Source of the DNA: Spirochaetia bacterium
GTDB lineage: Bacteria > Spirochaetota > Spirochaetia > WTKD01 > G963693115
Length of the DNA: 64,000 bases
Assembly (NCBI GenBank): GCA_965226055.1
Contig: CBDDCA010000006.1
Coordinates: forward strand, 258,251-322,250
Direction of reading: 5' to 3'
Positions 1 to 54,785 of the stretch are shown one piece after another; within the stretch, counting starts at the first letter, position 1, and each line of letters begins with the position of its first letter. The notes under the pieces were generated by a model. That model did no database searches. It saw nothing but the letters and a program-made list of their open reading frames with translations, and was not told where the DNA came from. The translations under genes were made by a program, and so were the position numbers.

Positions 1-1611
1 TGCACCAAGCCGTTCATTATCATTATTTATCGAAGCAAAAATATTATTCGCCTGTAGCTTTTGCCTATACTCTTCAGCAACATCTCTATACTGTTCTACA
101 ATAGGAATAATAACTACCTGTTCAGGAGCAAGCCATACAGGAAAAGCTCCCGAGTAATGCTCTATCAATACACCAAAAAATCGTTCCAAAGATCCCAGCA
201 ACGCACGATGAATCATATAAGGACGCTTTTTTTCTCCATCTTTATCAATAAAACTCATGTTAAATCGCTCAGGCAAATTAAAATCAAATTGAATAGTCGT
301 CATTTGCCATTCTCTTCCTAGCGCATCCTTAATTTTAAAATCTATTTTAGGACCATAGAAGGCCCCTCCTCCTTCGTCTATCTCATATTCAATATGTTCT
401 TCTTCTACTGCTTTCTTTAATGCGTCTGTAACCCTTTGCCAGTCATCATCCTTGCCTACCGCTTTTTTTGGTTTTGTTGCCAAAAAAGCCTTAATATCAG
501 AGAATCCTAAATCTTTCCAAATAGAATAAGAAAATCGTAACACTTCTTTTATCTCATTTTCTACTTGATCGGGAGTACAAAAGATATGAGCATCATCCTG
601 TGTAAAACCACGAACACGTAATAATCCATGCAATACTCCTCCTTTCTCATATCGATATACAGTACCAAGCTCTGCCCAACGTAATGGAAGCTCACGATAC
701 GATCGCATCTTATTTTGATATATCAGTATATGAAAAGGACAGTTCATAGGTTTCGCATAATAATCGCTTGCATCTAACTCCATAGGAGAATACATATTCT
801 CTTTGTAAAATTCAAGATGTCCACTTTTTTCCCATAACCAGCTTTTTCCTACATGTGGCGTAAACAGTATATCATAACCATTGTGAAGATGTCTTTCACG
901 CCAATAATCCTCCACAGTCACACGAATGCGAGCTCCTTTTGGATGCCAATAAATCAACCCTGCTCCTGCCTCTTCATGAATACTAAATAAATCAAGCTCT
1001 TTACCAATCTTCCTATGATCTCTTTTTTCTACTTCTTTTAACCACTCTAAATGCTGACGTAGCTCTTTTGGTTGAGTCCATGCAGTAGCGTATATCCTTT
1101 GTAACATAGGACGCTTTTCATCTCCACGCCAATACGCTCCTGCTACAGAAAGTAACTTACACGCCTTTGCATTCAAATACTTAGTACTAGGAACATGAGG
1201 CCCCTTACATACATCAACAAAATCGTATACTGTATAGGTACTCAACTCAGCATCATCATGAAACCCACTGATAAGCTCTTGCTTATATGGTTGCTGTTCA
1301 TACAACTTCATAATATCATCACGAGTATGTACCTGTTTTGTAAATACAGATTCTTCTTTTAGTATCTCACCCATAGTATCTTCTATCCGTACTAAATCAG
1401 CTTCAGTAAGCGAATGAGGGAGATCAAAATCATAGTAAAAGCCATTTTCTATGGGCGGACCAATAGCAGTCTTTGCCTCTGGAAACAGCTGTAGCACTGC
1501 TTTTGCCATAACATGAGCAAAACTATGGCGTATACGATACAATTGTTCTTCTATAGATAATTTTTTATATTCTGATTCATTTATGTTTTCTTCCATAGTA
1601 ACCTCTTCCAT
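1..1611 (-). CDS. thrS: Threonyl-tRNA synthetase (3' partial; runs off window start). Begins directly with the editing (N2) domain
   Basis: Reverse-strand translation reads MEEVTMEEN...RHSFAHVMA (HxxxH), DVCKGPHVP (CxxxH), RDHRKIGKELDLF, then the class II catalytic core, then a C-terminal anticodon-binding region that continues past position 1. The ATG is at 1611 (alternative at 1596). This ORF is not in the supplied ORF track because it is edge-truncated. Confidence 0.85.
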   Translation of the reverse strand, partial: MEEVTMEENINESEYKKLSIEEQLYRIRHSFAHVMAKAVLQLFPEAKTAIGPPIENGFYYDFDLPHSLTEADLVRIEDTMGEILKEESVFTKQVHTRDDIMKLYEQQPYKQELISGFHDDAELSTYTVYDFVDVCKGPHVPSTKYLNAKACKLLSVAGAYWRGDEKRPMLQRIYATAWTQPKELRQHLEWLKEVEKRDHRKIGKELDLFSIHEEAGAGLIYWHPKGARIRVTVEDYWRERHLHNGYDILFTPHVGKSWLWEKSGHLEFYKENMYSPMELDASDYYAKPMNCPFHILIYQNKMRSYRELPLRWAELGTVYRYEKGGVLHGLLRVRGFTQDDAHIFCTPDQVENEIKEVLRFSYSIWKDLGFSDIKAFLATKPKKAVGKDDDWQRVTDALKKAVEEEHIEYEIDEGGGAFYGPKIDFKIKDALGREWQMTTIQFDFNLPERFNMSFIDKDGEKKRPYMIHRALLGSLERFFGVLIEHYSGAFPVWLAPEQVVIIPIVEQYRDVAEEYRQKLQANNIFASINNDNERLGA

Positions 1612-1675
1612 TCAATATATATTTATTGTATAGTACTCTTTACAATATTACCATACCCTACTGTTCTATATTGGA

Positions 1676-1767
1676 AATTATAGACTGATAGTAAATATGT
1701 ATAAAATGTTGTATAATTGAGTAAAGGAGGCTGGGCTAATCTAATTTTGCTTATCCTTGCCAACCCC
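1676..1767 (+). repeat. Copy A of a ~95-bp IS1595-like element terminal segment (about 85% identical to 4838-4930). It contains a 'taaaggagg' RBS-like motif and ends '...ccaacccc'
   Basis: Direct alignment of 1676-1767 with 4838-4930. The 5' part translates as the remnant of a transposase C-terminus (..NYRLIVN vs ..EFRFNYRPIAN). Confidence 0.5.
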
Positions 1768-1790
1768 TAAAATTATTAAAAGAGGTATAT

Positions 1791-4043
1791 ATGAAGTTAA
1801 ATATATTCTATTTATTTTTTATATTTCTTGTGTTTTCACTTTTTACTTGTGAAGATATAAAGGTTAATAGTAAGGAAAAAGCCACCGCACCAGCAGAGGC
1901 ACGCAGTGTTACAGCAAGCCACACCGATACAAGTATAACTATATCATGGCAAGCCCCTACCCTTACAAGCATACACACAAAAGCAAATGGAGAAAGGCTT
2001 ACAACGACAGATGTATCGTACAAAGTATACAGAGTAGCAAAAGGAAGTGATGCCCGAAGTATAGCCCAGATTAAAACAGCAGACACGAACCCGATAGCAG
2101 TAGCAAAAGGAACAACAAGCACAACTATAAGTAACCTTACTGAAAATACCACCTATGAAATAGTAGTACAATCAGTCAATGCAACAGATAGTACACAAGT
2201 CTCTACAGGCATGCGAATAGAAGTTACTACCCTTGCTACTAATCAAGCAACCGCACCAGCAGAGGCACGCAGTGTTACGGGAAGTCCTACCGATACCAGT
2301 ATAGGCATATCATGGCAAGCACCTGCCCTTACAAGCACACACAAAAAAGCAGATGGAGAAAGGCTCACAACAGCAGATGTATCGTACAAAGTATACAGAG
2401 TAGCAAAAGGAAGCAAAGCCCGCACAATAGCCCAGATTAAAACAGCAGACACAAACCCGATAGCAGTAGCAAAAGGAACAACAAGCACAACTATAAGTAA
2501 CCTTACTATAAATACTACCTATGAAATAGTAGTACAATCAGTCAATGCCACTGACCCAACAAAAATCTCTACAGGTACACTAATAGAAGTAACTACCAAT
2601 AGTCAAGCAACTGCACCAGCAGAGGCACGCAGTGTTACAGCAAACCACACCGATACCAGTACAACTATATCATGGCAACCCCCAATACTTACAAGCACAC
2701 ACAAAAAAGCAGATGGAGAAAGGCTCACAACGGCAGATGTATCGTATAAAGTATACAGAGTAGCAAAAGGAAAGAATGCCCGCACAATAGCCCAGATTAA
2801 AACAGCAGACACAAACCCAATAGCAGTTGCAAAAGGAATAACAAGCACAACTATAAGTAACCTTACTGGAAATACTCCCTATGAAATAGTAGTACAATCA
2901 GTCAATGCCACCGACCCAACAAAAACCTCTACAGGAGTACAAATAGAAATAACTACCAATAGTCAAGCAACTGCACCAGACGAGACACACAGTGTTACAG
3001 CAAGCCACACCGATACCAGTACAACTATATCATGGCAAGCCCCTACCCTTACAAGCAGTCACAAGAAAGCAGATGGAAGATGGCTCACAACAGCAGATGT
3101 ATCGTACAAAGTATACAGAGTAGCAAAAGGAAAGAATGCTCGCACAATAGCCCAAATTAAAACAGCAGACACGAACCCGATAGCAGTAGCAAAAGGAACA
3201 ACAAGCACAACTATAAGTAACCTTACTGGAAATACCACCTATGAAATAGTAGTACAATCAGTCAATGCTACCGACCCAACAAAAACCTCTACAGGAGTAC
3301 AAATAGAAATAACCACCCCAAGCCAAGCTACCATACCAGAAGAAATCCGCTTTTTAGGAAGAAGTCGAACCGATGACAGTATATCCCTATCATGGATATA
3401 TATTTATATTACTCCAGGCAAGAAAGCAACTGGACAAAAGCTTACAGCGGCAGATATATCGTATAAAATATATAGAGTAGCAAAAGGAAAGAATGCCCGC
3501 ACAGTAGCCCAGATTAAAACAGCAGACACAAACCCGATAACAGTAGCAAAAGGAATAACAAGCACAACTATAAGTAACCTTACTATAAATACTACCTATG
3601 AAATAGTAGTACAATCAGTCAATGAAACGGACACTACAAAAGTATCTACAGGAGTACGAATAGAAGCAAATACCGATAGTCAGGCAACCGCACCAGAAGA
3701 TACACAAAGTGTTGGAGTAGATACGACCACCGATGACAGTATAAGAATATCATGGGAAGCCCCTACCCTTACAAGCACACACAAAAAAGCAGATGGAGGA
3801 AGGCTCACAACAGCAGATGTATCATATAAAGTATACAGAGTAGCAAAAGGAAGGTATCCCCGCACAATAGCCCAGATTAAAACAGCAGACACGAACCCGA
3901 TAACAGTAGCAAAAGGAATAACCCACGCAACTATAAGTAACCTTAATGGAAATACTACCTATGAAATAGTAATACAATCAGTGAATGCAACGGACACTAC
4001 AAAAGTATCTACAGGAATACGATTAGAAGTAAATACCAAATAA
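1791..4043 (+). CDS. Surface lipoprotein with six tandem fibronectin type III-like repeats
   Basis: Signal peptide with lipobox (..FSLFTC). A ~120-aa unit repeats six times: 'ATAPAEARSVT..TDTSI.ISWQAP...ADGERLTTADVSYKVYRVAKG...TTYEIVVQSVNATD', which is FN3-like (SW..P, Y.V, TxYEfxVxavN). Confidence 0.8.
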   Translation: MKLNIFYLFFIFLVFSLFTCEDIKVNSKEKATAPAEARSVTASHTDTSITISWQAPTLTSIHTKANGERLTTTDVSYKVYRVAKGSDARSIAQIKTADTNPIAVAKGTTSTTISNLTENTTYEIVVQSVNATDSTQVSTGMRIEVTTLATNQATAPAEARSVTGSPTDTSIGISWQAPALTSTHKKADGERLTTADVSYKVYRVAKGSKARTIAQIKTADTNPIAVAKGTTSTTISNLTINTTYEIVVQSVNATDPTKISTGTLIEVTTNSQATAPAEARSVTANHTDTSTTISWQPPILTSTHKKADGERLTTADVSYKVYRVAKGKNARTIAQIKTADTNPIAVAKGITSTTISNLTGNTPYEIVVQSVNATDPTKTSTGVQIEITTNSQATAPDETHSVTASHTDTSTTISWQAPTLTSSHKKADGRWLTTADVSYKVYRVAKGKNARTIAQIKTADTNPIAVAKGTTSTTISNLTGNTTYEIVVQSVNATDPTKTSTGVQIEITTPSQATIPEEIRFLGRSRTDDSISLSWIYIYITPGKKATGQKLTAADISYKIYRVAKGKNARTVAQIKTADTNPITVAKGITSTTISNLTINTTYEIVVQSVNETDTTKVSTGVRIEANTDSQATAPEDTQSVGVDTTTDDSIRISWEAPTLTSTHKKADGGRLTTADVSYKVYRVAKGRYPRTIAQIKTADTNPITVAKGITHATISNLNGNTTYEIVIQSVNATDTTKVSTGIRLEVNTK
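1881..4040 (+). repeat. Six in-frame tandem repeats with a 360-bp period (366/360/360/360/357/357 bp), more than 90% nucleotide identity among units 1-4
   Basis: Unit starts ('gca(a/c)c(c/t)gcaccagcagaggcacgcagt') at 1881, 2247, 2607, 2967, 3327 and 3684. The reverse strand produces periodic spurious 75-aa ORFs. Confidence 0.9.
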
Positions 4044-4395
4044 GTAGGAATAATGAAAATACTAATAAGTAATTGCATAAAGGTAAAATATTCTAAACGA
4101 TATACAGAAAGAACACATCCCAAGAACCATATACCGAGAGTAATATAGTGCGACATTTCACCAGTAAAATATTGAAAGAGGTAGAGTATCAAGTAACCGA
4201 ATACTTAAAAAGTATAGGAGTAAAAAATGATAGAGAAAAAAGACAGTTTTAGAGATGGAATGAAAAAAGCAGATAAAAGCGAAGACACTAAAGTTATAGA
4301 ACAGATATTAAATGAAGTAGGTAACTATTTAGTACAATTCGTTATGTGAAGTAAGTTGAGAAACAGCAACAAAATGGTATCATATATTTCGAGTA

Positions 4396-4857
4396 ATGAT
4401 AGCAAAAAAACTCACAGTATATGAAGTATTGATAAAAAGAGAAATAGATGAAAGTTATTTCGGAGGAAAAAGAAAAGGAAAACGAGGAAGAGGAGCAACA
4501 GAAAAAACAATAGTGCTTAGATTGTATAAAAGGAGTGACCATGTGCATACACTCACAATAAGTAATACAACGACTTGCAACTCTATAGTATCATACAGAA
4601 AAAATAGCTCCTCAGAGTAGTATCTATACAGACACCTCTCCGAGTGATAATATACTTGCTGTATCAGACTTTCAGCACTATCGCATAAATCATGCAAAGG
4701 AATTTGCACACAAGCAAAATCATATAAACGAGATAGAGAATTTTTGGAATCCAATCAAAGAGACATCTGAGAAGATACAATGGAATACAAAAAAACCATT
4801 TTGAATTATACTTAAAAGAATATGAATTTCGGTTTAATTATAGACCGATAGCAAACA
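4396..4857 (+). pseudogene. IS1595/ISXO2-family transposase remnant (C-terminal DDE region only, with frameshifts and stops)
   Basis: The 74-aa ORF 'EIDESYFGGKRKGKRGRGATEKTIV' matches the ISXO2-like transposase signature. Downstream frames read '..HYRINHAKEFAHKQNHINEIENFWNPIKETSEKIQWNTKKPF*' and 'EFRFNYRPIAN', the hallmark C-terminus of IS1595 transposases, but these are split across three frames. Confidence 0.7.
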
Positions 4858-4930
4858 TGTATATATGTGTTGTAAAATTGGATAAAGGAGGCAGGGTTAG
4901 TCTAATTTTGCTTATATCCATGCCAACCCC
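4838..4930 (+). repeat. Copy B of the IS1595-like terminal segment (the native 3' end of the degraded element)
   Basis: About 85% identical to 1676-1767, and contiguous with the transposase pseudogene. Confidence 0.5.
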
Positions 4931-5033
4931 ATATTATATTTTCGCCTATACAGTTATAATTTTTAGCATTTCTGCTTATCTCTTAAAAGAGAAAAGCAGA
5001 AACATGTGTATATGCATTAACAATGCATGAGAA

Positions 5034-5993
5034 TTACTGTAATGGGTATAGTAGCTTTTGCACTTCGGGAGTATCGATATTTTCAAGGCTTACATACGTA
5101 GCACCTGTATCGATTCTTGGATTTACGCTTTTTCCTTGTAGAGCATCGTATACTGACATAACGCCTTTATATCCCATTTGAAATGGATTTTGTACAACAA
5201 AGCCATTAATAACTCCACTTTGAAGCAAAGCTATTTCTTGCTCACTAGAATCAAATCCAACAAGAATAATATCCTCTCTTCCAATTTCCTGCAATCCTAA
5301 TGCCGCTCCTACCGCAGAACCTTCGTTTGCTGCAAAAATAGCTTTAAGATCTGGATTAGCTCGTACCATATCAACGATAAGATTAGCAGATTTATCATGA
5401 TCTCCTGCACCGTACACTGGCTCAAGAACAGTTATACCAGAATACTTTTTTAATTCCTGTAAAGCTCCATCTCTTCTGTCTATCCCTGTAGAACTAGTTG
5501 CATCATGAACAATAACGCCTACTTTTCCTTCTTCACCAATAAGAGTAGCAAGCTCTTTTGCTCCTATCGCTGCAGCATTTGCATTATCAGTAGCAACAAA
5601 ACTCAATGGAATGTCACTATCTACTCCAGAATCAAACATAACTACTGGAATACCTGCTGTATTTGCTTTTTCCACATACGGAATAAGAGCTTCCTTATCT
5701 AAAGCAGCAAGCAACAGACCATCAACTCTTGATGTAATAGCATTTTCTACCATATTGATTTGTACATCAATCATTGATTCGGTAGCAGGCCCCTCAAAAG
5801 TAACTCTAATGCCAAGTTCTTCTGCCGCAGTATCAGCTCCCAGCTTTACTGTTTGCCAAAATTCATGCTGAAACCCTTTACTGATAACAGCAATATATGT
5901 GTCATCATCAGACACAGACTCTTGATTTCCACCAGCAAAAAGCATACCAGTGAACACCAACAATAAAATAGTTGAAATAATGATTTTTTTCAT
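5034..5993 (-). CDS. Sugar ABC transporter periplasmic binding protein (CUT2, ribose/monosaccharide type)
   Basis: Signal peptide and a periplasmic-binding-protein type I fold (..VISKGFQHEFWQ..GADTAAEELG..). It is the last gene of the ATPase-permease-SBP operon. Confidence 0.8.
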   Translation of the reverse strand: MKKIIISTILLLVFTGMLFAGGNQESVSDDDTYIAVISKGFQHEFWQTVKLGADTAAEELGIRVTFEGPATESMIDVQINMVENAITSRVDGLLLAALDKEALIPYVEKANTAGIPVVMFDSGVDSDIPLSFVATDNANAAAIGAKELATLIGEEGKVGVIVHDATSSTGIDRRDGALQELKKYSGITVLEPVYGAGDHDKSANLIVDMVRANPDLKAIFAANEGSAVGAALGLQEIGREDIILVGFDSSEQEIALLQSGVINGFVVQNPFQMGYKGVMSVYDALQGKSVNPRIDTGATYVSLENIDTPEVQKLLYPLQ

Positions 5994-6014
5994 TATAACC
6001 TCCTTATATTATTT

Positions 6015-6998
6015 TTATTTATTGTTCATCCCTCGTTTTATACGCTGATTATCAAGATAGACCGCTAGTATTACTACTAAGCCTATAATAATCTGCTGCC
6101 AAAATTGATTCACCTGCATAAGATTAAGCCCATTCCGTAACACACTCATAATCAAAGCTCCTATGACTGTCCCTAGTATAGTCCCTACTCCTCCCGATAA
6201 ACTTGCTCCTCCTATTACTGCAGCAGCAATTGCATCAAGCTCTAATCCTGTAGCAATAGATGGTTGCCCCGAATTCAAACGTGCAGCCATAATGATCCCT
6301 GCAAATCCACACATAGCTCCTGAGAAAGTATATACAAAAAACTTCACTAATTTTACAGAAATTCCCGAAAGCCTCGCTGCTTCTTCGTTGCTTCCAAGTG
6401 CGAAAATATATCTTCCTACTACCGTTTTTGATAATAGTAAATGAGCTATCACTGCAAACACAGCAAGATAAATAACAGGCATAGGTAATATACCGTACAT
6501 ATCATAATTATATAACAGCTTAAAATTCTGTTGTTGATTAAAATATATTGGTCTGCCACCACTCAACACTAAAGCAAACCCTCTCGCACTTATCATAACC
6601 CCAAGGGTAGCAATAAAAGGAGGCAATTCTAAATGTGCCACTACTACACCGCTAAAAGCACCACATAGTATACCAGATATAACTCCAATGACAAGTGCTG
6701 GAGCTATAGCCATGCCAGATCTTAAAAGAAGAGCTACAATGACCCCCGAAACAGCGACAATAGAACCAACAGAAAGATCAATACCTGCAGTAATAATAAC
6801 TATAGTAATACCAATAGCCACAATACCAGTTACTGCAGTTTGTTTAATTACTGTTATGATATTATCATATTTTAAGAAATAAGGACTTGCAAAAGAGAAA
6901 AATATTACAAGTAACAATAAACTTGCAAATATAGCTAATTTTTGAATAGTACTAGAATTTATCATCGATTTTTTACAGACAATTTCTTTTTGTGACAT
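6015..6998 (-). CDS. Sugar ABC transporter permease (RbsC/BPD_transp_2 family)
   Basis: A 327-aa polytopic membrane protein with a typical RbsC-like hydrophobic profile, placed between the ATPase and the SBP. Confidence 0.8.
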   Translation of the reverse strand: MSQKEIVCKKSMINSSTIQKLAIFASLLLLVIFFSFASPYFLKYDNIITVIKQTAVTGIVAIGITIVIITAGIDLSVGSIVAVSGVIVALLLRSGMAIAPALVIGVISGILCGAFSGVVVAHLELPPFIATLGVMISARGFALVLSGGRPIYFNQQQNFKLLYNYDMYGILPMPVIYLAVFAVIAHLLLSKTVVGRYIFALGSNEEAARLSGISVKLVKFFVYTFSGAMCGFAGIIMAARLNSGQPSIATGLELDAIAAAVIGGASLSGGVGTILGTVIGALIMSVLRNGLNLMQVNQFWQQIIIGLVVILAVYLDNQRIKRGMNNK

Positions 6999-7026
6999 TA
7001 TAATAACTCCTATTTATAATACATAT

Positions 7027-8547
7027 CTAATTTTCATGTTGCATATGACCAGTAGCATATAACATAATTTTTTCCTGTGTAATATCTTGTTTTTCTAATA
7101 TACCTGATACTTCTCCCGAACACATTACCAATACTCTATCACTCATCCCAACAATTTCACTTAAATCTGAAGATACCATTATGATAGAAAGCCCAGTATC
7201 AGTTAAAGAAGTAATAAGATCGTATATTTCACGTCTTGCTCCAACATCAATACCTCTTGTAGGCTCATCAAAAATCAAAACATCGCATTGCGTACACAAC
7301 CACCGAGCAATAATCACTTTTTGCTGATTTCCTCCACTTAAATAGCGTACAATCTGAGTTAAAGAAGGAGTTTTTATACGTAAAGAATCTACAAATTCTG
7401 TACAATGCTCTCTTGCAATATTTTTGTTAATGATCCCTATCTTTTTAGAATGTTCCTTTATGGTAGCAAGGATTATGTTTTCTTGTACATTGAGATTAAG
7501 AGCAAGTCCATTTTTTTTCCTATCTTCAGTCAGATATCCAATACCATGCCTTATTGCATCACGCGGAGTATTGATAGCAACTTCTTTAGAATGAACAAAT
7601 ACTTTACCACTATCCTTCGGATCTGCACCAAAGATAGCTCTCATTAACTCAGTACGACCAGCTCCCACTAAACCAGACACTCCTAGTATTTCTCCCTTAC
7701 ACAAAGAGAACGATATATTCTTTAAGTCAGGATTACGCTGTATATTTTCTACACGCAAAATTTCCTCTCCTCTATGAGGATGCCTCGTAGGAAACATATC
7801 AGTAAGCTCTCTTCCTACCATAAGATGTATAAGATGTTCAGTAGTAGTATCCGCATAGTGCAAAGTATCAATATACTGACCATCTCGAAATACAGTTACT
7901 CTGTCCGCAATTTCTTCCAGCTCCTTCAATTTATGAGAGATAAAAATAATTCCTTTTCCTTGCTCTTTTAGTCTACGTACTGTACTAAACAATACTTCTG
8001 TTTCTGCTTCACTTAATGTTGCTGTTGGCTCATCCATAATGAGAATATCACAAGACACTGAGATAGCTTTAGCAATCTCTACCATTTGCTGTTCTGCAAC
8101 ACTTAAAGTACTTACTTTTGCATATACATCAATACTATAATTAAGTAACTGCAATATTCTATTTGCTTCTTCATTTAATTTTTTCTCATTAAGCACATAC
8201 CGAGCATAGCGTGGTTCTCTCCCAATAAATATATTTTGTGCAACAGTAAGATGGGAGAAAAGATTGAATTCTTGATGAATAATACTAATACCAATTTCCT
8301 GTGCTACATGAGGATTAAGCACTTCAATTTTCTTACCACGATATATAATATCTCCTTTATCTGGTTGATATACTCCAGTAAGAATTTTCATAAGAGTAGA
8401 TTTGCCTGCCCCATTTTCACCTAAAATAGCATGTACTTCCCCTGCCTTTACATCTAAAGACACATTTTGCAACGCCTTTACTCCAGGAAAAAATTTAGAT
8501 ACATCTTGTACCTTCAACAGCATATCGCTTTTATTTTGTGCCATCAT
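7027..8547 (-). CDS. Sugar ABC transporter ATP-binding protein with two fused NBDs (RbsA/MglA type)
   Basis: Two Walker A motifs (GENGAGKST; GLVGAGRTE), two LSGG signatures (LSVAEQQ / LSGGNQQK), and a ~500-aa length. Confidence 0.85.
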   Translation of the reverse strand: MMAQNKSDMLLKVQDVSKFFPGVKALQNVSLDVKAGEVHAILGENGAGKSTLMKILTGVYQPDKGDIIYRGKKIEVLNPHVAQEIGISIIHQEFNLFSHLTVAQNIFIGREPRYARYVLNEKKLNEEANRILQLLNYSIDVYAKVSTLSVAEQQMVEIAKAISVSCDILIMDEPTATLSEAETEVLFSTVRRLKEQGKGIIFISHKLKELEEIADRVTVFRDGQYIDTLHYADTTTEHLIHLMVGRELTDMFPTRHPHRGEEILRVENIQRNPDLKNISFSLCKGEILGVSGLVGAGRTELMRAIFGADPKDSGKVFVHSKEVAINTPRDAIRHGIGYLTEDRKKNGLALNLNVQENIILATIKEHSKKIGIINKNIAREHCTEFVDSLRIKTPSLTQIVRYLSGGNQQKVIIARWLCTQCDVLIFDEPTRGIDVGARREIYDLITSLTDTGLSIIMVSSDLSEIVGMSDRVLVMCSGEVSGILEKQDITQEKIMLYATGHMQHEN

Positions 8548-8649: not shown

Positions 8650-9642
8650 CTATTTACTTGTGTATTTTATAGAAACCCATATCCGAAACGAACTACTTTT
8701 TCCGTTATATTTACCACTTCCTTGAAAGCTAATTGTATACAATTTCTGTAATAGCTTCCCTTTTGCTTTACCACTTATTGTACCAGAGCTAGTATCAAAA
8801 CCTAATCCTGTCTCATCGTTAATATCAGGAGAAATAGCATAGCGACCAGATATATCACTGGGATTTGCATCAAAACTCACCGATATATCAGTATCTTTGT
8901 CAGCAATAGCCATAATGAACGGTAAGCCATTATACGGTTCTATGGTAACAGCATCATTCCCGCTTGGAGTAAATACATAGCTCCAGCCAGGAAGTTTTAC
9001 ACTCGTAACACCTGAATTATCAAATATACCTTCTACTCTAATAGTATCTTGTATATCCCATTCCTCTAAATCATGCTTAAACCCAGTGGCTCCCTTAAAC
9101 ATATTAATCATATTATTGATAGTATTGTTTACTTTCCACGTTGATATATCTTGATTAAACTGTGTCGCTCCTGCAAACATACTGTTCATATTTTTCACTT
9201 TCTCTACTTTCCACACTGATATGTCTTGATCAAACTGTGTTGCTCCTGCAAACATACCACTCATATCGGTAACATTACTGACATTCCAGCTTGATATATC
9301 TCCATTAAAATGAGTATTTCCCTTAAACATATTGCTCATATCGGTAACATTACTGACATTCCAGCTCGATATATCTCCATTAAAATTAGCTAAATCTCCA
9401 TCACTACTAAATAAACCACTCAAATCTGTCATATTACTTATATCTATATTTGAGAGATCTGTTTCCCATCCATGAAATGAAACTTCACGTTTTATATTAT
9501 TAGCTAGTACTTGTTTATCCGATGGATGATAGACAAAAGACAAGTCTGTAGATTCCTGACTACAACTAAAAAGCAGTAGCAATCCCATTCCTATCATCCA
9601 TAGAAAATAATACTTATATGCTTGAGCATTACATTGTCTCAT
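8650..9642 (-). CDS. DUF285-repeat lipoprotein with a C-terminal He_PIG-like Ig domain. A small paralog of the 2822-aa neighbour
   Basis: Lipobox (LLLFSC). Four repeats of '..F.G...FN.DIS.W.VS.VT.M..MF' (Mycoplasma-type DUF285), then 'SPDINDETGLGFDTSSGTISGKAKG' (the TGxISG signature). Confidence 0.7.
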   Translation of the reverse strand: MRQCNAQAYKYYFLWMIGMGLLLLFSCSQESTDLSFVYHPSDKQVLANNIKREVSFHGWETDLSNIDISNMTDLSGLFSSDGDLANFNGDISSWNVSNVTDMSNMFKGNTHFNGDISSWNVSNVTDMSGMFAGATQFDQDISVWKVEKVKNMNSMFAGATQFNQDISTWKVNNTINNMINMFKGATGFKHDLEEWDIQDTIRVEGIFDNSGVTSVKLPGWSYVFTPSGNDAVTIEPYNGLPFIMAIADKDTDISVSFDANPSDISGRYAISPDINDETGLGFDTSSGTISGKAKGKLLQKLYTISFQGSGKYNGKSSSFRIWVSIKYTSK

Positions 9643-9785
9643 AACTATTACACCAAATATACATTGATTACTACAGCTTGTACTTTAACTATAATTATTT
9701 TTACTAAATCTTACAGAGTAAAAAAACAATATGCTATTATTATACACTATATTAAAAAAATATGCAAAAATAGGTAATAAGTTGC

Positions 9786-9826
9786 CACGAGTTCAAGTAT
9801 TAAATGTGACAAAGGAGCAAAAAAAG
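9786..9826 (+). repeat. Solo IS30-family left-end (IRL) remnant, a degenerate copy
   Basis: 'cacgagttcaagtattaaatgtgacaaaggagcaaaaaaag' matches the left end of the intact IS at 54784 (cacgagttcaaggattaaatgcgacaaaggagcaaaaaaag) with three mismatches. Confidence 0.5.
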
Positions 9827-9930
9827 CGAAAATATAAAAAATACTGAATGTATCTCTTGCCTTTATTTCTTGAATTTGTAGCAGCTATCTTTTCTGTATA
9901 ACTGTGAGTAAGGTATTTTATAAGTGGCAA

Positions 9931-10536
9931 TTATATTCTACTGAATAAGATACTGAACAAAATACCAAATCCTGACAACATGATAGTCATTTGAATTCCA
10001 AAAAACCAGTACATAATAGTACTGTTTGTTTTTATCGATTCTTTCATAGATTTTATTTCTGTTGTCAAATTTTCCCGTACACTATTTATTTCTGTTGTCA
10101 AATTTTCCCGTACACTGCTTATCTCTGTTGTTAAGTTCTCCCGTATGCTGTTTATTTCTGTTGTTAAGTTCTCCCGTACACTGTTTATTTCTGTTGTTAA
10201 TTTCTTCTCTACACTGTTTATTTCTGTTGTCAAATTTTCCCGTACACTGCTTATCTCTGTTGTCAAATTCTCTCGTACGCTGTTTATTTCTGTTGTCAAA
10301 TTTTCCCGTACACTATTTATTTCTATTGTCAAATTTTCCCGTACACTGCTTATCTCTGCTGTTAAGTTCTCCCGTACACTGCTTATCTCTGCTGTTAAGT
10401 TCTCCCGTACGCTGTTTATTTCTGTTGTTAATTTCTTCTCTACACTGTTTATTTTTTCTAATAAAAAATCATATTGTGTAATTGGAGTTGCAAGCATTCC
10501 ATCTTCATTTGTAATTTTCTCTTGTACTGCTCTCAT
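9931..10536 (-). CDS. Bdr-like tail-anchored coiled-coil protein built on 11-aa (33-bp) tandem repeats
   Basis: Central '(T)EI(N/S)SVRENLT' repeated about 12 times and a C-terminal hydrophobic anchor (IMYWFFGIQMTIMLSGFGILFSILF). The architecture resembles Borrelia Bdr/DUF1640-type proteins. Confidence 0.6.
   Translation of the reverse strand: MRAVQEKITNEDGMLATPITQYDFLLEKINSVEKKLTTEINSVRENLTAEISSVRENLTAEISSVRENLTIEINSVRENLTTEINSVRENLTTEISSVRENLTTEINSVEKKLTTEINSVRENLTTEINSIRENLTTEISSVRENLTTEINSVRENLTTEIKSMKESIKTNSTIMYWFFGIQMTIMLSGFGILFSILFSRI
10050..10460 (-). repeat. About 12.5 contiguous 33-bp tandem repeats, coding and in frame
   Basis: Consensus unit 'ttatttctgttgtcaaattttcccgtacactg(c/t)' with alternating variants (gtcaaatt / gttaagttctc). 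Confidence 0.9.
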
Positions 10537-10604
10537 AATTTTATTATATCATATTATTATCATTGAGTAAGTATGTAATCATTTGTAAGGTTGCAAATAA
10601 ACAA

Positions 10605-13600
10605 CTAGCGACAATTCCCCGCTGGAAGACACCATCCAGGCAAGTTTTTTACAGCTGTACCCTTAAACATATCTGTTTTTATCACACTGTTTGCTACATT
10701 CCAGTTACTCAAATTCTGATTAAAAACACTAGCATCAGCAAACATACTGCTCATATCGGTAACATTACTTACATTCCAATTCCCTATATCTTGATTAAAA
10801 ACATCAGCATCATAAAACATATACCTCATATTGGCAACATTACTTACATTCCAATTCCCTATATCCTGATTAAAAGCTTCAGCATCATAAAACATACTGT
10901 TCATATTGGTAACTTTACCTACATTCCATTTTGATATATCTCCATTGAAAAATTCTGTTTGATTAAACATATTGCTCATATCGGTAACTTTACTTACATT
11001 CCATAACGATACATCTCCATTAAAGTATTGTTTATCATAAAATAGCCCTCCCATGTCTGTTATGTTACTTGTATCTATCATGTTTAAGTTAGGGGCAAAT
11101 CCTTGTGCTTTTATCTCTGCTTCTATGGCTTCCTCTAACTTTTTTTTGTTTTGAGGAGTGTACTTGTATTCTATCGTAACTGATATTGTTTTTGATCTAC
11201 TGGCATCAGTATATGTATGTATTGCTTTCCCATCGCTCTTTTTACTGGTAAACTCTATAGTATAGGTCTTTGAAGCTGCTTTGGTAGGAGTACCTGATAT
11301 CTTCCCAGTATCAGCATCAAAGCTCAACCCTGTATCTGCTGTTATATCCGGACTTATACTAAAAATTCCTGCTATAGCGGGTGTTTTAGTAAGTGTTACT
11401 TCTTTATCTTTCGTTAATGGTACTCCTACATATGCCTTTACACTACCTCCTATACTAGCTCTACTTGCACTTATATTAAAATACCATGTAGGGAGTATTA
11501 CTACAGCTGTATGCTCAAACATATTTGTTTTACTCACAGTTTTATCCACATTCCATGTTTCAAGTTCTTTATTAAATACACTTGCTCCCTTAAACATATT
11601 GCTCATATCGGTAACTTTACTGACATTCCACCCTGTTATATCTTGATTAAACTTACTTGCATTAATAAACATACTACGCATATCGGTAACTTTACTGACA
11701 TTCCACCCTGTTATATCTTGATTAAACTCACTTGCCTTAAAAAACATACTGCTCATATTGGTAACGCTACTGACATTCCATCTTGATATATTTCCATTAA
11801 AATTAACTTCACTGGAAAATAGACTACTCATATCTTTTATTTTACTTGTATCTATCATAGTGAGATCGGGGGTATTTCCTTGTACAGTTATCTCTGTATT
11901 TATAGCCTGCTGTAATTCTGCTTTATTATTAGGAATATGCTTATACTCTTTAATAGTAACTAACACTTTTATAGTCCGCCTATCATCAATATATTTATGT
12001 ATGAGTGTTTTATCAGCCTCTTCACTTCTAAACTGTATGGTATACTCAGTCTGTGAAGTTACTGTGGTGGGAGTACCTGATATTATGCCAGTACTAGTAT
12101 CAAAGTTCAACCCTGTATTTGTTGTTATATTTGGACTTATACTAAAACTCCCTGTTATAACGGGCGTTTTGGTAAGTATTATTTTTTGACTGTCTAGGAG
12201 TGATAAATCTCTATAGACACTTATAGTAGTACTATTTGCACTTATACTAAAATACCATGTAGGCAACTTTTTTACTGCTGAAGCAAGAAACATATCTGTT
12301 TTTGTCACACCGCTATCTACATTCCAACTTTCAAGATCTTGGTTAAATGCATTTGCGTTATTAAACATAAAAAACATATTCGTAACACTACTGACATTCC
12401 AATTTGATATATCCCCATTAAATTTTTGTGCTCCTGCAAATATACTGCTCATATTGGTAACTTTACTTACATCCCATTTCGATACATTTCCATTAAAATG
12501 ATCTTTACTGGAAAATATATTACTCATATCTGTTATAGCACTCGTATCTATTATGTTTAGATTAGCGGTATTTCCTTGTGCATTTATCTCATCATCTACA
12601 GCCTTCTGTAATTCTGTTTTATCACTGGGCGTATACTTATACTGACTTATAGTTACATGTATCTCTATTGTCCGATCAGTATATGTATGTATTGTTTTCC
12701 CATTCTTTTCACTGGTAAACTGTATAGTATACTTAGTTTGTGAAGCTAATATAGTGGGAGTACCCGATATTGAGCCAGTGTTAGTATCAAAGTTCAACCC
12801 TGTATTTGTTGTTATATTTGGACTTATACTAAAACTCCCTGTTACATTAGACGTTTTAGTGAGTGTTATTGTTTCAGTGTTACTTAGCGATAAATCTTTG
12901 TATCCAGTTATAGTAGTTCTGTTTGCATTTATACTAAAATACCATGTAGGCAACTTCTTTACTACTGTACTTTCAAACATATTTGTTTTTATTACACTGC
13001 TTTTTACATTCCAGTTTTCCAGATTTGCACTAAACTTTGATGCAAAATTGAACATAGTTTCCATATTTGTAACTTTACTTACAGTCCAATTTTTTATATC
13101 TTGGTTAAAGCTTTGTGCAGATAGAAACATAGCTCTCATATTTATAACTTTACTTACAGTCCAATTTTTTATATCTTGGTTAAAGGCATGTGCTCCAGCA
13201 AATAAACTCTCCATATTTGTAACAGCACTTACATTCCATCCTGATATATCTCCATTAAATTTATTCGCATTCAAAAACATATTGCTCATATTTGTAACTT
13301 TACTTACATTCCATTTTGATATATCTCCATTGAAATTAGCTTTATCCTCAAATAGATTACTCATATCTGTTATAACACTTGTGTCTATTATGTTGAGATT
13401 AGCAGTATCTCCTTGTGCAGCTATCTCATCATCTACAGCTTTCTGTAACTCTGTTTTATTACTAGGAGTATGCTTATAACTTGTGGTAACTGATATTTTT
13501 ATTGTTCTATCAGTATATTTATGTGTCGCTGGATTACCTTTACTATCAGTAAAGCTACTGGTAAACTCTATAGTATAATCAGTCTTTGAAGCTGCTTTAG

Positions 13601-16600
13601 TAGGAGTTCCTGATATTGTGCCAGTGCTAGTATTAAAATCTAACCCTGTATTTACTGTTATATCTGGACTTATACTAAAACTTCCTGTTATATCAGGCGT
13701 TTTGGTAAAAGTTATTTCTTTATTTTTTGCAAGTGGAACATTTACATATGTATTTATACTACGATTACTTGCACTTATATTAAAATACCATGTAGGCAAC
13801 TTTGCTACTGCGGTATTCTTAAACATATCTGTTTTTGTCACACCACTTGCTACATTCCAGCTTTCAAGATCTTTTTCAAATGCATTTGCTCCACTGAGCA
13901 TACTACTCATATTGGTGACAGCATTTACATCCCATTCGGATATATCTCCATTGAAAGTAATATTATCCTTAAATAGATCACTCATATCTGTTATTTTACT
14001 TGTATCTATTATGTTGAGATTAGCTTCGTTTCCTTGTACATTTATCTCTGTAGTTATAGCTTGCTTTAATTCTGTTTTATTATTAGGAGTATGCTTATAC
14101 CTACGTATCTCTACCGATATTTTTATTGTCCTATCAGTATCAATATATTTATGTATTACTGTTCCATCTGTCTTTTTACTTGTAAACTGTATGGTATATT
14201 CAGTCTTTGAGATTGCTGTAAGAGGAGTACCCGATATTTTACCAGTGCTAGGATCAAAATCTAAACCTGTATTTTTTGCTATATCTGGACTAACGCTAAA
14301 ACTTCCTGTTATATTAGGTGTTTTGGTAAGGGTTATTTCTTTATCTGTTGCTAATGGTATGTTTTTATATGCAATTATCTTATTATCACTTGCACTTATG
14401 CTAAAATACCATGTAGGCAACTTTGCTACTGCGGTATTCTTAAATATATCTGTTTTTGTCACAGTCCCATCGCTTGCTACATTCCAATCTTCCAGATCTT
14501 GGTTAAATTTTGTCGCTCCCAAGAACATCTTGCCTATATCGGTAACGCTACTTATATTCCAGCTTGATATATCTTGATTAAACGCTGCCGCTGACGAAAA
14601 CATCTGATGCATATTCGTAACTTTTCCTACCTTCCAATTTGATATATCTTTATTAAAAATGGTTGCTCCCGAAAACATAGCTGTCATATTTGTAACTTTT
14701 CTTACATCCCAGCCCGACATATTGCTATTAAAATTTGCTGCTCCTAAAAACATTCGATTCATATCCGTAACTGCCCCTACATTCCACCCCGATATATCTT
14801 TATTGAAACTGGTTGCTCCCGAAAACATATTCCCCATATCATTCACATTTTGTACCTTCCAATTTGATATATCTTGATTAAAACTTGTCGCATTCCAAAA
14901 CATACCATTCATGTTAGTAACACTTTGTACCTTCCAGTTTGATATATCTTGATTAAAACTACCTGCATAATAAAACATACTGCTCATATCAATAACATTA
15001 CTTACATTCCAACCAGAAATATCCCCATTAAATGCAGCAGCTTGATTAAACATATGACTCATATCAGTAACATTACTTACATCCCACTCAGATATTTTAC
15101 CATTAAAAGTAGTATTACTATTAAATAATCCACTCATATCATCAATCTTACTAGTATCAATTATATTTAAGTCAGCAGTATTTCCTTGTAATCCTATCTC
15201 AGTATTTATATTGTTTATTAATTCTAATTTACCAGTAGGAGTATACTTATGCCCTATAGTAACTGTTATCGTTATTGTCCTATCAGTATAGGCATATATT
15301 GTTTTCCCATTCTTTTCACTGGTAAACTGTATGGTGTAAGGAGTTTTTGAAGCTACCTTTGTAGGAGTACCCGATATTGTCCCAGAGCTAGAATCAAAAC
15401 TCAAGCCTGTATTTGTTGTGATACTTGGACTTATACTAAAACTTCCTGCTATACTAGGTGTTTTGGTAACTTTTATTTCTTCACTTGCTCCTAATTTTAT
15501 ACGTGCTTGCCCTGTCAGAGCAGACTTATTTGCACTTATACTAAAATACCATGTAGGTAACTTTGCTACTGCGGTATTCTTAAACATATCTGTTTTTGTC
15601 ACAGTCCCATCGCTTGCCACCTTCCAGCTTTCAAGATCTTTGTCAAATGCACTTGCTCCTAAAAACATGCTACTCATATCAGCAACCTTGCTTACATTCC
15701 ATCCCGATACATTTTGATTGAAACTTGTTGCTCCTGAAAACATATTACTCATATCGGTAACGCTACTTACATCCCATCCCGATATATCTCCATTGAAATT
15801 AGCTTTATTCTCAAATATATTACTCATATCTGTTATATTACTTGTATTTATTATGTTTAAGTTAGCAGTATTTCCTTGTACTTCTATCTCCTTTTTTATG
15901 TTTTCCAATAACTCTGTTTTGTTGTTAGGAGTATAAAGATAAGTATTTATTGCTACTGATAGAGTGATGGATCTAGTATCGACATAAGTATATGTCGCTG
16001 GATTACCTGAGCTATCAGTAAAGCTACTGGTAAACTGTATGGTGTAAGAAGTTTGTGAAGCTGCCTCGGTAGGAGTACCCGATATTGTGCCAGTTCTAGT
16101 ATCAAAATCTAACCCTGTATTTGCTTTGATATCTGGACTTATACTGAAACTTCCTGCTATAAGGGGTGTCCTTGTCAGTATTATATCTGTTATTGGTACT
16201 TTTACTCCCTCATGTATACTATTGCTGCTTGCGCTTATACTAAAATACCATGTAGGTAATTTTGCTACTGCAGTATTCGTAAACATATTTGTTTTTGTCT
16301 TAAGGCTTGCTATATTCCAGTTTTCAATATCTCCATTAAATTTTATCGCCCCACTCAACATATTTTCCATATCAGTGACTTTACTTACATTCCACTCGGA
16401 TATATTTCCATTGAAAGTAGTGTTATCCTTAAATAGATCACTCATATCTGTTATGTTACTTGTATCTATTATGTTGAGATTAGCAGTATTTCCTTGTGCA
16501 TTTATCTCTGTAGTTATAGCTTGCTTTAATTCTGCTATATTATTGGGAGTATGCTTATATTTATGTATCTCTACTGATATTGTTATTGTTCTATCAGTAT

Positions 16601-26866: not shown

Positions 26867-26906
26867 CACGAGTTCAAGGATTAAATGCGACAAAGGAGCA
26901 AGAAAC
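26867..26906 (+). repeat. Solo IS30-family left-end (IRL) copy. It heads a ~410-bp cassette duplicated at 54278-54700
   Basis: 'cacgagttcaaggattaaatgcgacaaaggagcaagaaa' is followed by sequence that is more than 95% identical to 54325-54700. Confidence 0.55.
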
Positions 26907-27047
26907 ATAAAACAAGCATATTTTTTATTAGCTACTACATATAGTGTATATTTAGTATATAATTTTCAATTTAAGCACTAGAGAAATTTGCTTTATTTTT
27001 ATATTAATGCTATACTAAATGCAGAATAATAAGAGAACAATAACATT

Positions 27048-27281
27048 ATGAGTGTACAAGCAAAAACTGATACAAAAGAAACTACTTTAATTTTAAATAA
27101 TACCGATAAGGAAAATTTGGAAAGATGTTTCTCGGAATGGAAATTCAAAGATTATCAAAGCCTTATGAGGTTCGTATCATCTATTTTAATTGAGAGCGAA
27201 GATAAAATAACAATAGGCATTAAGAAAAGTGGAGTGCTAAAAGAATTTTCACCAGCAGATCATTTACTAAAAGATTCATAA
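27048..27281 (+). CDS. Small hypothetical protein (77 aa) carried on the duplicated IRL cassette. Its paralog is at 54474-54731
   Basis: An ORF is conserved in both cassette copies (MSVQ(A/V)KTDTKETTLILNNTDKENLERCFSEWKFKDYQSLMRFVSSILIESEDKITIGIKKSGVLKEFSPADHL). I recognise no known domain in it. Confidence 0.45.
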   Translation: MSVQAKTDTKETTLILNNTDKENLERCFSEWKFKDYQSLMRFVSSILIESEDKITIGIKKSGVLKEFSPADHLLKDS

Positions 27282-54731: not shown

Positions 54732-54785
54732 TGATAATTATATCACCGATCAACAGTTAAAGGAATTTAATTATGTCACCGATCA

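What the first reader, a model, noticed from the sequence alone, without database searches (positions are those of the whole stretch)
1676..4930. FN3-repeat lipoprotein gene bracketed by two direct copies of an IS1595-like element's terminal ~95 bp. Possibly IS-mobilised cargo or an IS-borne outward promoter/RBS
The 1676-1767 copy is ~85% identical to 4838-4930. The latter is the genuine 3' end of a degraded IS1595/ISXO2 transposase (pseudogene 4396-4857). The upstream copy ends 24 bp before the lipoprotein ATG and supplies a 'taaaggagg' box.

The six 360-bp repeats are more than 90% identical, which indicates a recent, still-homogenising array. Directly repeated IS ends on both sides make this gene a candidate for excision, duplication or transfer as a unit.
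Basis: seen in the sequence. Interest (0 to 1): 0.65.

Follow-up and report, generated by a model that had tools for sequence, protein, structure and literature searches.

The report
Dead insertion-sequence scars flank surface-protein gene
A fast-evolving surface lipoprotein gene in an uncultured spirochaete sits between two old, broken right-end fragments of a small IS1016-type insertion sequence, which is an ordinary genomic scar rather than a working mobile unit.

Summary
The repeat is real. Window 1676-1767 and 4836-4930 match at 80/92 positions, and none is expected by chance. Both copies are right ends of a 727-bp IS1016-group (IS1595 family) insertion sequence. I recovered that element intact from a sister genome, MAG OZ244590.1: 17-bp inverted repeats, a 219-aa transposase and 8-bp AT-rich target duplications.

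Each window copy stops exactly at the IS terminus. The downstream copy is IS nt 131-727, frameshifted. The upstream copy is only IS nt 636-727. No left inverted repeat exists in the window, so nothing here can transpose.

The 'taaaggagg' box is the relic of the transposase's last codons (..WIKEAGLV*). It lies 61 nt from the ATG. The gene's own Shine-Dalgarno (AAGAGG, 1779-1784) lies outside the scar.

The same scar-gene-scar layout is inherited in the sister genome, which has nine FN3 units instead of six. There the two scars share a secondary deletion and 98 identical terminal nt, which indicates gene conversion.

The six units are 78-91% identical (mean 84%), not above 90%.

The upstream scar cut the gene from its native upstream region at -23, so it probably carries or transmits the promoter. 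That is inferred, not shown. Whether the gene ever moved as IS-flanked cargo cannot be decided. This is an ordinary finding and a new member of a known kind.

The parts
1..1596 (-). thrS (threonyl-tRNA synthetase), 5' 532 codons, running off the window edge
   Evidence: Pfam tRNA-synt_2b, tRNA_SAD and HGTP_anticodon. 99% aa identity to the orthologue P0001 in MAG OZ244590.1.
1597..1675 (.). Native thrS-proximal intergenic DNA, not IS-derived
   Evidence: Collinear with the sister MAG up to 1670 and with the more distant relative L006 up to 1655. No match to the IS.
1676..1767 (+). Upstream IS scar: IS nt 636-727. It holds the relic of the last 23 transposase codons plus stop (1676-1744; internal TGA replaces Trp) followed by the 3' end with the right inverted repeat
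   Evidence: 82/92 identical to the reference IS and 89% by blastn. Translation reads NYRLIVNMYKMLYN*VKEAGLI*, against the intact NYRPIANMYKVLYNWIKEAGLV*.
1689..1717 (+). Best promoter-like site facing the FN3 gene (TAGTAA-17-TATAAT), inside the scar
   Evidence: Custom scan. The same site is conserved in the MAG (TAGCAA-17-TATAAT). It scores only 9/12, and promoter-like sites in the region are not enriched over shuffles.
1722..1730 (+). 'taaaggagg' box: relic of transposase codons (W)IKEAG, not an RBS
   Evidence: In the intact IS the same bases encode ..NWIKEAGLV*. The box lies 61 nt upstream of the ATG at 1791.
1751..1767 (+). Right terminal inverted repeat relic TTATCCTTGCCAACCCC
   Evidence: 15/17 match to the reference IRR TTATCCATGCCAGCCCC. 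Homology stops exactly here.
1768..1790 (+). Remaining native leader of the lipoprotein gene, with its SD AAGAGG at 1779-1784
   Evidence: Identical in the MAG. Homology to paralogue leaders in L008, L010 and L004 begins at or after 1768.
1791..4043 (+). FN3-repeat probable lipoprotein gene (750 aa; signal peptide ending ..FSLFTC)
   Evidence: ORF. Pfam fn3 E=7e-28 with 6 stretches. MAG orthologue P0121 is 1111 aa at 80% identity. dN/dS 0.71 against 0.04 for thrS. Under simulated neutral divergence the ORF stays open in under 2% of trials.
1881..4040 (+). Array of six ~360-nt FN3 units: W1 1881-2246, W2 2247-2606, W3 2607-2966, W4 2967-3326, W5 3327-3683, W6 3684-4040
   Evidence: TRF. Unit boundaries and identity matrix.
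4044..4337 (.). 3' flank of the gene. 4053-4226 is homologous to the 3' flank of a paralogous locus. 4227-4337 is of unresolved origin (a 40-aa ORF, probably spurious)
   Evidence: blastn to L008 9816-10029 at 76-80%. Partly deleted in the MAG. No Pfam hit for the 40-aa ORF.
4338..4930 (+). Downstream IS scar: IS nt 131-727. It is a frameshifted transposase pseudogene (coding relic to the TAA at 4903-4905) plus the IRR relic at 4914-4930. The left 130 nt of the IS (IRL and first ~28 codons) are missing
   Evidence: 532/589 identical to the reference IS with 12 gap nt. NCBIfam IS1595 E=1e-30. Pfam PF12762.
5034..5993 (-). rbsB-like periplasmic sugar-binding protein, last gene of a convergent ABC transporter operon (rbsA/C/B-like, 5034-8547)
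   Evidence: Pfam Peripla_BP_4 E=2e-60. ORFs. Syntenic in the MAG.

Best explanation
Window 1676-1767 and 4338-4930 are two old, transposition-dead scars of one small insertion sequence. It is a 727-bp IS1016-group member of the IS1595 family. The scars lie in the same orientation on either side of a lineage-specific, fast-evolving FN3-repeat surface lipoprotein gene.

Shown:
- Each scar ends precisely at the IS's right terminal inverted repeat, so each junction was made by transposition, not by segmental duplication.
- Both scars have lost their left ends.
- The layout is inherited: a sister genome has it at the same place.
- The 'taaaggagg' box is leftover transposase coding sequence.
- The gene's SD is its own.
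- In the sister genome the two scars have exchanged sequence by gene conversion, and the FN3 array has a different unit number (9 against 6).

Inferred:
- The upstream insertion cut the gene from its native upstream region at -23. Transcription of the still-constrained ORF must therefore start in, or pass through, the scar. The most likely start is the conserved TAGTAA-17-TATAAT at 1689-1717.
- Today the scars serve only as leader or promoter DNA and as short substrates for homologous recombination. They are too diverged in this strain to recombine efficiently.
For: - Reference IS: three 100%-identical 727-bp copies with 17-bp perfect inverted repeats and 8-bp TSDs (TAATTTAA, AAATTTTA, AAAAATAA), plus a 183-bp MITE, all in MAG OZ244590.1. 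The transposase is 219 aa.
- Window scars align to IS 636-727 and IS 131-727 and end exactly at ..GCCAACCCC.
- There is no IRL in the window and no significant match to IS nt 1-135.
- The sister genome has thrS, scar, FN3 gene (1111 aa), scar and rbsB in the same order, with the identical 23-nt junction to the ATG.
- The MAG scars share a 12-nt deletion and an IS ~305-543 deletion that the window's downstream scar lacks. They are 203/210 identical, with 98 identical terminal nt.
- Paralogue leaders are homologous only from 1768 onward.
- ORF constraint: dN/dS is 0.71, and the ORF would stay open in under 2% of neutral simulations.
- Family assignment: NF033547 and PF12762 hits, and 58% aa identity to ISEc69.
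- ISApl4 properties (712 bp, 8-bp AT-rich direct repeats) match the reference IS (PMC12561309).
Against: - No transcript data exist. The promoter-like site is only 9/12, and such sites are not enriched here (8 found against 12.7 expected).
- Only one of three intact IS copies in the MAG lies upstream of a co-oriented gene, so the element shows no systematic outward-promoter placement.
- A dN/dS of 0.71 is also compatible with relaxed constraint.
- Both genomes are metagenome assemblies. Unit number and the identity of the MAG scars could be affected by assembly or polishing.
- Only one close relative was available for comparison.
Confidence: 0.85

Rival explanations
1. Relic of a pseudo-compound (directly oriented) IS transposon or translocatable unit. 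Two complete IS copies captured one FN3-family gene elsewhere, the unit was delivered next to thrS, and both copies then decayed.
For: - The two scars are in direct orientation.
- The bracketed 2.57 kb holds exactly one family gene with a 23-nt leader and a ~180-nt family-type 3' flank.
- The site is a synteny breakpoint: relatives with 86% and 79% ThrRS identity have other genes there.
- IS1016-group elements are documented to do this: Tn7560 (PMC12561309), Tn7052/mcr-2 (PMC7835479) and the IS1016-flanked cap locus (PMC6535587).
- The same IS is active on this gene family in the MAG, where it is inserted in a paralogue's signal-peptide region with TSD TTATTTTT.
Against: - Both left ends are lost, so no unit-level target duplication can be checked.
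- Paralogue loci L008-L010 carry no IS remnants.
- The unit is at the same place in the only close relative.
- Two independent intergenic insertions share orientation half the time by chance.
- No empty site is available.
Confidence: 0.3
2. The scars are functionally inert. The FN3 gene is read from a promoter in the native 1597-1675 DNA through the scar, or it is poorly expressed or silent.
For: - A weak candidate CTTCCA-18-TATAGT at 1605-1634 exists and is conserved in the MAG.
- Promoter-like sites are not enriched.
- dN/dS is 0.71.
- In the MAG the native DNA is ~360 nt from the ATG, yet the gene is still intact.
Against: - ORFs of 750 and 1111 codons are open in both lineages at dS ~0.15, which argues for expression.
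- The candidate in native DNA scores lower (8/12) than the one in the scar.
- Within 115 nt of the ATG, the only sequence shared by both strains is IS-derived.
Confidence: 0.35
3. The block is currently a mobile or excisable unit. Transposition, or recombination between the direct repeats, would excise, duplicate or transfer the gene.
For: Direct repeats are present. Gene conversion between the homologous scars in the MAG shows that they can interact.
Against: - The window has no IRL and no intact transposase at the locus.
- In this strain the repeats share only 92 nt at 87% identity, with a longest exact run of 15 nt. From my own recall, not checked here, this is below the roughly 20-30 nt needed for efficient RecA recombination.
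- Each genome has a single copy of the block, at the same place.
Confidence: 0.05
4. The upstream IS end supplies the ribosome-binding site of the lipoprotein gene.
For: A strong SD-like AAAGGAGG lies at 1723-1730.
Against: - It is 61 nt from the ATG.
- It encodes K-E-A of the transposase C-terminus in intact copies.
- An SD AAGAGG lies 6 nt from the ATG, outside the scar, and is homologous to paralogue leaders.
Confidence: 0.02

Closest known systems
IS1016 subgroup of the IS1595 family (e.g. ISApl4, ISEc69, IS1016)
   Same: - The reference element from the sister genome is 727 bp, has a single 219-aa DDE transposase with the PF12762 domain, 17-bp terminal inverted repeats starting GGGGCTG, and 8-bp AT-rich target duplications.
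- ISApl4 is 712 bp with a 654-bp tnp and 8-bp AT-rich direct repeats (PMC12561309).
- ISEc69 has a 217-aa transposase (PMC7835479).
- The reference transposase is 58% identical in aa to ISEc69.
   Different: - It is a new, unnamed element from uncultured Spirochaetia.
- The window holds only two truncated right-end scars, not a complete copy.
- A transposase gene with an internal deletion (P0143, 209 aa) exists elsewhere in the source genome.
Pseudo-compound or composite transposons bounded by directly oriented IS1016-group copies: Tn7560 (ISApl4), Tn7052 (ISEc69-mcr-2), the IS1016-flanked H. influenzae cap locus
   Same: - Cargo is bracketed by two copies of the same small IS in direct orientation.
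- In cap-b one flanking IS1016 is also truncated (the IS1016-bexA deletion), and the flanking copies drive duplication (PMC6535587).
   Different: - Here both copies lack the left inverted repeat and a working transposase.
- No target duplication, no second location and no tandem amplification is seen.
- The cargo is a resident-family surface lipoprotein gene, not resistance or capsule genes.
IS-end outward or hybrid promoters (a general phenomenon described for many IS families; recalled from my own knowledge, not tested here)
   Same: An IS end lies 23 nt from a gene's start codon and points toward it, carries a perfect -10 hexamer, and has displaced the native upstream region.
   Different: The -35 is weak (3/6), there are no expression data, and the element shows no consistent placement upstream of genes in the MAG.

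Membership tests
IS1595 family, IS1016 subgroup insertion sequence | DDE transposase with the ISXO2-like / DDE_Tnp_IS1595 domain | tested here: met
   The reconstructed window pseudogene hits NF033547 at E=1e-30 (profile positions 43-215/215) and PF12762 at E=7e-23. The intact 219-aa orthologue is in L001.
IS1595 family, IS1016 subgroup insertion sequence | Small element (~700-745 bp) with a single ~217-220-aa ORF | tested here: met
   The reference copies are 727 bp with a 219-aa ORF. The window copies are truncated to 593 nt and 92 nt. The size range is taken from ISApl4 (PMC12561309) and from my recall of ISfinder.
IS1595 family, IS1016 subgroup insertion sequence | Terminal inverted repeats at both ends | tested here: not met
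   The reference has 17-bp perfect inverted repeats. The window copies keep only the right one (1751-1767, 4914-4930), and no left repeat exists anywhere in the window. The window features are therefore fragments of a member, not complete members.
IS1595 family, IS1016 subgroup insertion sequence | 8-bp (7-9 bp) AT-rich target-site duplication | tested here: inconclusive
   Met for the three intact MAG copies (L001, L002, L004). Not testable for the window scars because their left ends are gone.
IS1595 family, IS1016 subgroup insertion sequence | Sequence similarity to named subgroup members | tested here: met
   58% aa identity to ISEc69, 55-58% to ISEc75, and 60% to the multicopy Neisseria element.
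Compound / pseudo-compound transposon | Cargo bracketed by two copies of the same IS | tested here: met
   Scars at 1676-1767 and 4338-4930 are in direct orientation around the FN3 gene.
Compound / pseudo-compound transposon | Outer IS ends intact and at least one functional transposase (or full-length IS copies able to recombine as a translocatable unit) | tested here: not met
   Both copies are truncated on the left. The transposase relic is frameshifted. There is no IRL.
Compound / pseudo-compound transposon | Target duplication flanking the whole unit, or the unit found at different sites or absent from an empty site | tested here: inconclusive
   - The left end is lost.
- The unit occupies the same site in the only close relative.
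- More distant relatives lack synteny there.
- Metagenome scans found nothing.
IS-borne outward promoter | Outward-facing -35/-10 in the IS end at a suitable distance from the gene | tested here: inconclusive
   TAGTAA-17-TATAAT at 1689-1717 is conserved in the MAG, but it scores 9/12 and such sites are not enriched.
IS-borne outward promoter | Transcription start mapped inside the IS end | not testable with these tools
   No transcriptome data are available.
MITE (non-autonomous deletion derivative of the IS) | Both terminal inverted repeats flanking a short internal remnant | tested here: not met
   A true 183-bp MITE exists in the MAG (L003 7785-7967). The window's upstream copy has no IRL.
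FN3-domain repeat lipoprotein | Fibronectin type III domains; signal peptide with lipobox cysteine | tested here: met
   Pfam fn3 E=7e-28 with six stretches. The N-terminus MKLNIFYLFFIFLVFSLFTC has a non-canonical LFTC lipobox, whereas the paralogue in L004 has the canonical LLSC. Lipidation itself was not tested.

The most novel reading that the evidence does not exclude
The flanking scars could be a maintained recombination cassette rather than junk. Gene conversion would keep them similar, as in the sister genome. That would allow RecA-dependent excision or tandem amplification of the FN3 antigen gene, as IS1016 does for the H. influenzae cap locus. Together with unit-number changes, this would give population-level dosage or ON/OFF variation of a surface antigen, with the upstream scar domesticated as the gene's promoter.
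Probability: 0.1. Interest if true: 0.45.

Novelty: new member of a known kind. Interest (0 to 1): 0.2.

Why it matters
The main value is for annotation. The result defines a previously unnamed, recently active IS1016-group element in an uncultured Spirochaetia lineage, with its ends, target duplication and a MITE derivative.

It also shows that the conserved 92-nt boxes around a surface-protein gene are IS scars, not regulatory RNA or an RBS.

It gives a small, clean example of three processes: an IS insertion replacing a gene's native upstream region, gene conversion between flanking scars, and unit-number change (6 against 9) in a fast-evolving FN3 surface lipoprotein family. None of this challenges current understanding.

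Tried and rejected
- Chance similarity: rejected.
- Structured RNA or tRNA explanation: no Rfam or ARAGORN hits in the window.
- Upstream copy as half of a MITE. I considered this because the MAG MITE's right arm starts at IS ~630 and the window scar at IS 636. I rejected it because there is no IRL. In addition, the MAG's orthologous scar carries IS-internal sequence, which the conversion tract needs as flanking homology.
- Origin of the direct repeats by segmental or tandem duplication: rejected, because both copies end exactly at the IS terminus and then diverge.
- IS-supplied RBS: rejected on geometry and coding origin.
- IS association as a trait of the FN3 family: three paralogue loci (L008-L010) have no IS remnant. 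One paralogue (L004) is instead disrupted by an intact copy.
- Exact-protein look-ups of the window's RbsB, its FN3 protein, and P0126 and P0143 returned nothing, so the source genome's own context beyond the window was not retrievable. The cluster look-up gave no accession or name.
- Two metagenome scans (thrS-side junction; IS right end) found nothing, so no further strains or empty sites were obtained.
- The left boundary of the downstream scar: 4290-4337 shows only a faint resemblance to IS nt ~85-105 by eye, and the local alignment score for IS nt 1-135 is no better than elsewhere in the window. I treat 4338 as the boundary.
Full report
**Observation**

The window is AT-rich (34.7% GC). 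Its left end carries the following features:
- thrS on the minus strand (1-1596)
- a 750-aa ORF at 1791-4043
- a stretch with transposase similarity
- a convergent rbsB-like gene at 5034-5993

Aligning 1640-1800 with 4800-4960 confirms a direct repeat. A local alignment gives 1676-1767 against 4836-4930, 80/92 identical with 3 gap nt. A 33-nt degenerate core of the repeat occurs only at these two places in 64 kb, with none in 100 shuffles.

The ORF has six fibronectin type III stretches (Pfam fn3 E=7e-28) in a 360-nt x 6 tandem array.

A frame-corrected translation of 4370-4930 hits the IS1595 transposase models (NF033547 E=1e-30, profile positions 43-215 of 215; PF12762 E=7e-23).

The raw observation therefore stands, apart from two details. 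IS homology spans 4338-4930, not 4396-4857. The six FN3 units are 78-91% identical pairwise (mean 84%), not above 90%.

**What the 92-nt repeat is**

A degenerate pattern from the repeat, scanned against one genome per species, hit a single record: the 2.36-Mb chromosome of an uncultured Spirochaetia MAG, OZ244590.1.

Three of the four hits are 100%-identical copies of a 727-bp element. It has these features:
- 17-bp perfect terminal inverted repeats (GGGGCTGGCATGGATAA)
- one 219-aa transposase ORF
- 8-bp AT-rich target duplications (TAATTTAA, AAATTTTA, AAAAATAA)

The fourth hit is a 183-bp MITE that keeps both inverted repeats.

Size, repeats, duplications and ORF length match the IS1016 subgroup of the IS1595 family as described for ISApl4 (712 bp, 8-bp AT-rich direct repeats; PMC12561309). 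The transposase is 58% identical to ISEc69.

In the intact element the transposase ends ..FRFNYRPIANMYKVLYNWIKEAGLV*, and the stop is followed by 23 nt that contain the right inverted repeat. The window's repeat is exactly this stretch: the last 23 codons, the stop, and the right end. Both window copies end at ..GCCAACCCC, which is precisely the IS terminus, and then diverge.

The 'taaaggagg' box is thus the codons for I-K-E-A-G. The upstream copy still reads NYRLIVNMYKMLYN*VKEAGLI*.

Both junctions were therefore made by transposition, not by duplication of a chromosomal segment.

**State of the two copies**

The downstream copy aligns to IS nt 131-727 at 90% identity with several frameshifting indels. 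The upstream copy aligns only to IS nt 636-727 at 89%.

Neither strand of the window contains a left inverted repeat or a significant match to IS nt 1-135. No other remnant of this IS is in the window.

Nothing at this locus can transpose. The longest exact match between the two scars is 15 nt, which makes them poor substrates for homologous recombination.

**Comparative evidence**

The ThrRS orthologue with 99% aa identity lies in the same MAG. Its locus (L005) has the same order: thrS, IS scar, FN3 gene, IS scar, rbsB. thrS is 97.5% identical at the nucleotide level and the rbs side is 94.6% identical. The 23 nt between the IS end and the ATG are identical.

The arrangement therefore predates the split of the two strains (dS ~0.11-0.15).

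The details differ in informative ways:
- The MAG gene has nine units (1111 aa). The terminal units are orthologous to the window's (W1~M1, W5~M8, W6~M9), and the internal MAG units M3 and M5 are 99% alike, which indicates a recent expansion there.
- The MAG's downstream scar has a 12-nt deletion and an IS ~305-543 deletion that the window's orthologous scar lacks.
- The MAG's upstream scar carries the same two deletions. It is 203/210 identical to the downstream scar, with 98 identical terminal nt.

The simplest reading is gene conversion from the downstream scar to the upstream scar in the MAG lineage. That requires the ancestral upstream scar to have been longer than the 92 nt left in the window. 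The window lacks about 248 nt that are present in the MAG at that point.

More distant relatives (ThrRS 86% and 79%) keep synteny on the far side of thrS but have unrelated genes on this side. Homology stops at window position 1655. No empty site was found, and two metagenome scans returned nothing.

**The gene and its family**

Only 22 homologues were found among 5.8 billion proteins. All come from contigs of these few assemblies, several in each genome, and often carry DUF285 repeats.

The gene evolves fast (dN/dS 0.71 against 0.04 for thrS). Even so, it is open over 750 and 1111 codons. With simulated neutral substitutions at 5-11% per site, the ORF stays open in under 2% of trials. It is therefore probably expressed.

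Three paralogous loci carry no IS remnant. In L004 an intact IS copy sits inside the signal-peptide region of a paralogue, with TSD TTATTTTT. The element is, or recently was, active on this family in the sister genome.

**Promoter and RBS**

The gene's SD (AAGAGG, 1779-1784) lies in the 23 nt outside the scar. Homology to paralogue leaders begins at or after 1768, exactly at the IS end. The insertion therefore separated the gene from whatever lay upstream of -23. Since the gene seems to be under selection, transcription must start in or run through the scar.

The best candidate on the right strand is TAGTAA-17-TATAAT at 1689-1717, conserved in the MAG. The evidence is weak. The site scores 9/12 and promoter-like sites are not enriched in the region. 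Only one of three intact copies in the MAG lies upstream of a co-oriented gene. I give about even odds that the scar holds the promoter.

**Did the gene arrive as IS-flanked cargo?**

IS1016-group elements form units bounded by directly oriented copies:
- Tn7560
- Tn7052 with mcr-2
- the cap locus, where one flanking copy is also truncated

Direct orientation, a single family gene as content, and the synteny breakpoint all fit that history. So do two independent intergenic insertions. Without left ends, a target duplication, an empty site or a second location, the question is undecidable here. I put delivery as a unit at about 0.3.

**Verdict**

These are ordinary IS scars around a variable surface-protein gene. 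The IS is a new member of a known subgroup. The RBS idea, the array identity and present-day mobility do not hold up.

One caveat applies throughout: both genomes are metagenome assemblies, so unit counts and the identical scars in the MAG need read-level confirmation.

Noticed in passing
window 56138-56152 (upstream of ORF 56191-60906): A G15 homopolymer lies between an ATG (56099 or 56126, MKKIGGGGG..) and the 1571-aa FN3/DUF285 surface-protein ORF. With G16 or G13 the reading frame fuses a canonical lipoprotein signal peptide (..LAMTTLVLVGC) to the ORF, and with G15 it stops. This is either a phase-variable ON/OFF switch or a homopolymer error in the assembly.
   Followed up: partly
window 43082-43094 and 44210-44223: Two further long homopolymers (C13 and C14, which read as G tracts on the coding minus strand) sit near the 3' ends of two tandem HtrL/YibB-like genes inside a 95%-identical 300-nt repeat. 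The first lies 38 nt upstream of a glycosyltransferase family 11 gene (42088-43044). They are candidate phase-variable glycan loci.
   Followed up: partly
window 9783, 26864, 44045, 54281, 54781 (about 42 nt each, + strand): The conserved box GATCACGAGTTCAAGGATTAAATGCGACAAAGGAGCAAAAAA occurs five times.
- The copy at 54781 is the left inverted repeat of an IS30-like element (transposase 54892-55857, with HTH_38 and rve domains; inverted partner GTCGCATTTAGTCCTTGAATCCG near 55841).
- The other four are solo copies 55-140 nt upstream of minus-strand gene starts.
- Similar boxes sit just upstream of the RBS of FN3 paralogues in the MAG.
- In addition, 26883-27182 and 54309-54608 are 94% identical.
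   Followed up: partly
L004 6935-7661 (MAG OZ244590.1): An intact copy of the 727-bp IS interrupts the signal-peptide coding region of a paralogous FN3 lipoprotein gene (TSD TTATTTTT). Removing the IS restores the ORF MKYISILYLFFIFLVLSLLSCEDLK...
   Followed up: yes
L003 7785-7967 (MAG OZ244590.1): A 183-bp MITE derived from the IS consists of IS nt 1-81 joined to nt ~630-727. Both inverted repeats are intact and there is no recognisable target duplication.
   Followed up: partly
window 8650-19073 (- strand): A cluster of DUF285/BspA-like repeat proteins includes a 2822-aa ORF (10605-19073) built of many 75-nt units. A 201-aa ORF (9931-10536) holds a 33-nt x 12 tandem repeat at 10052-10454.
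   Followed up: no
L005 about 9825-9925 (MAG), absent from the window: The MAG has about 248 nt between the thrS upstream region and the 92-nt scar that the window lacks. This stretch includes a hairpin followed by T8 on the thrS strand (GCCTATTCTTTTAGAATAGC TTTTTTTT), which is terminator-like.
   Followed up: no
P0144 (MAG) and P0143 (source genome): Transposase variants of the same IS group. P0144 has a divergent N-terminal HTH region but a nearly identical C-terminal half, so it is mosaic. P0143 (209 aa) lacks the glycine-rich KRGRGAGG segment and so is possibly defective.
   Followed up: no
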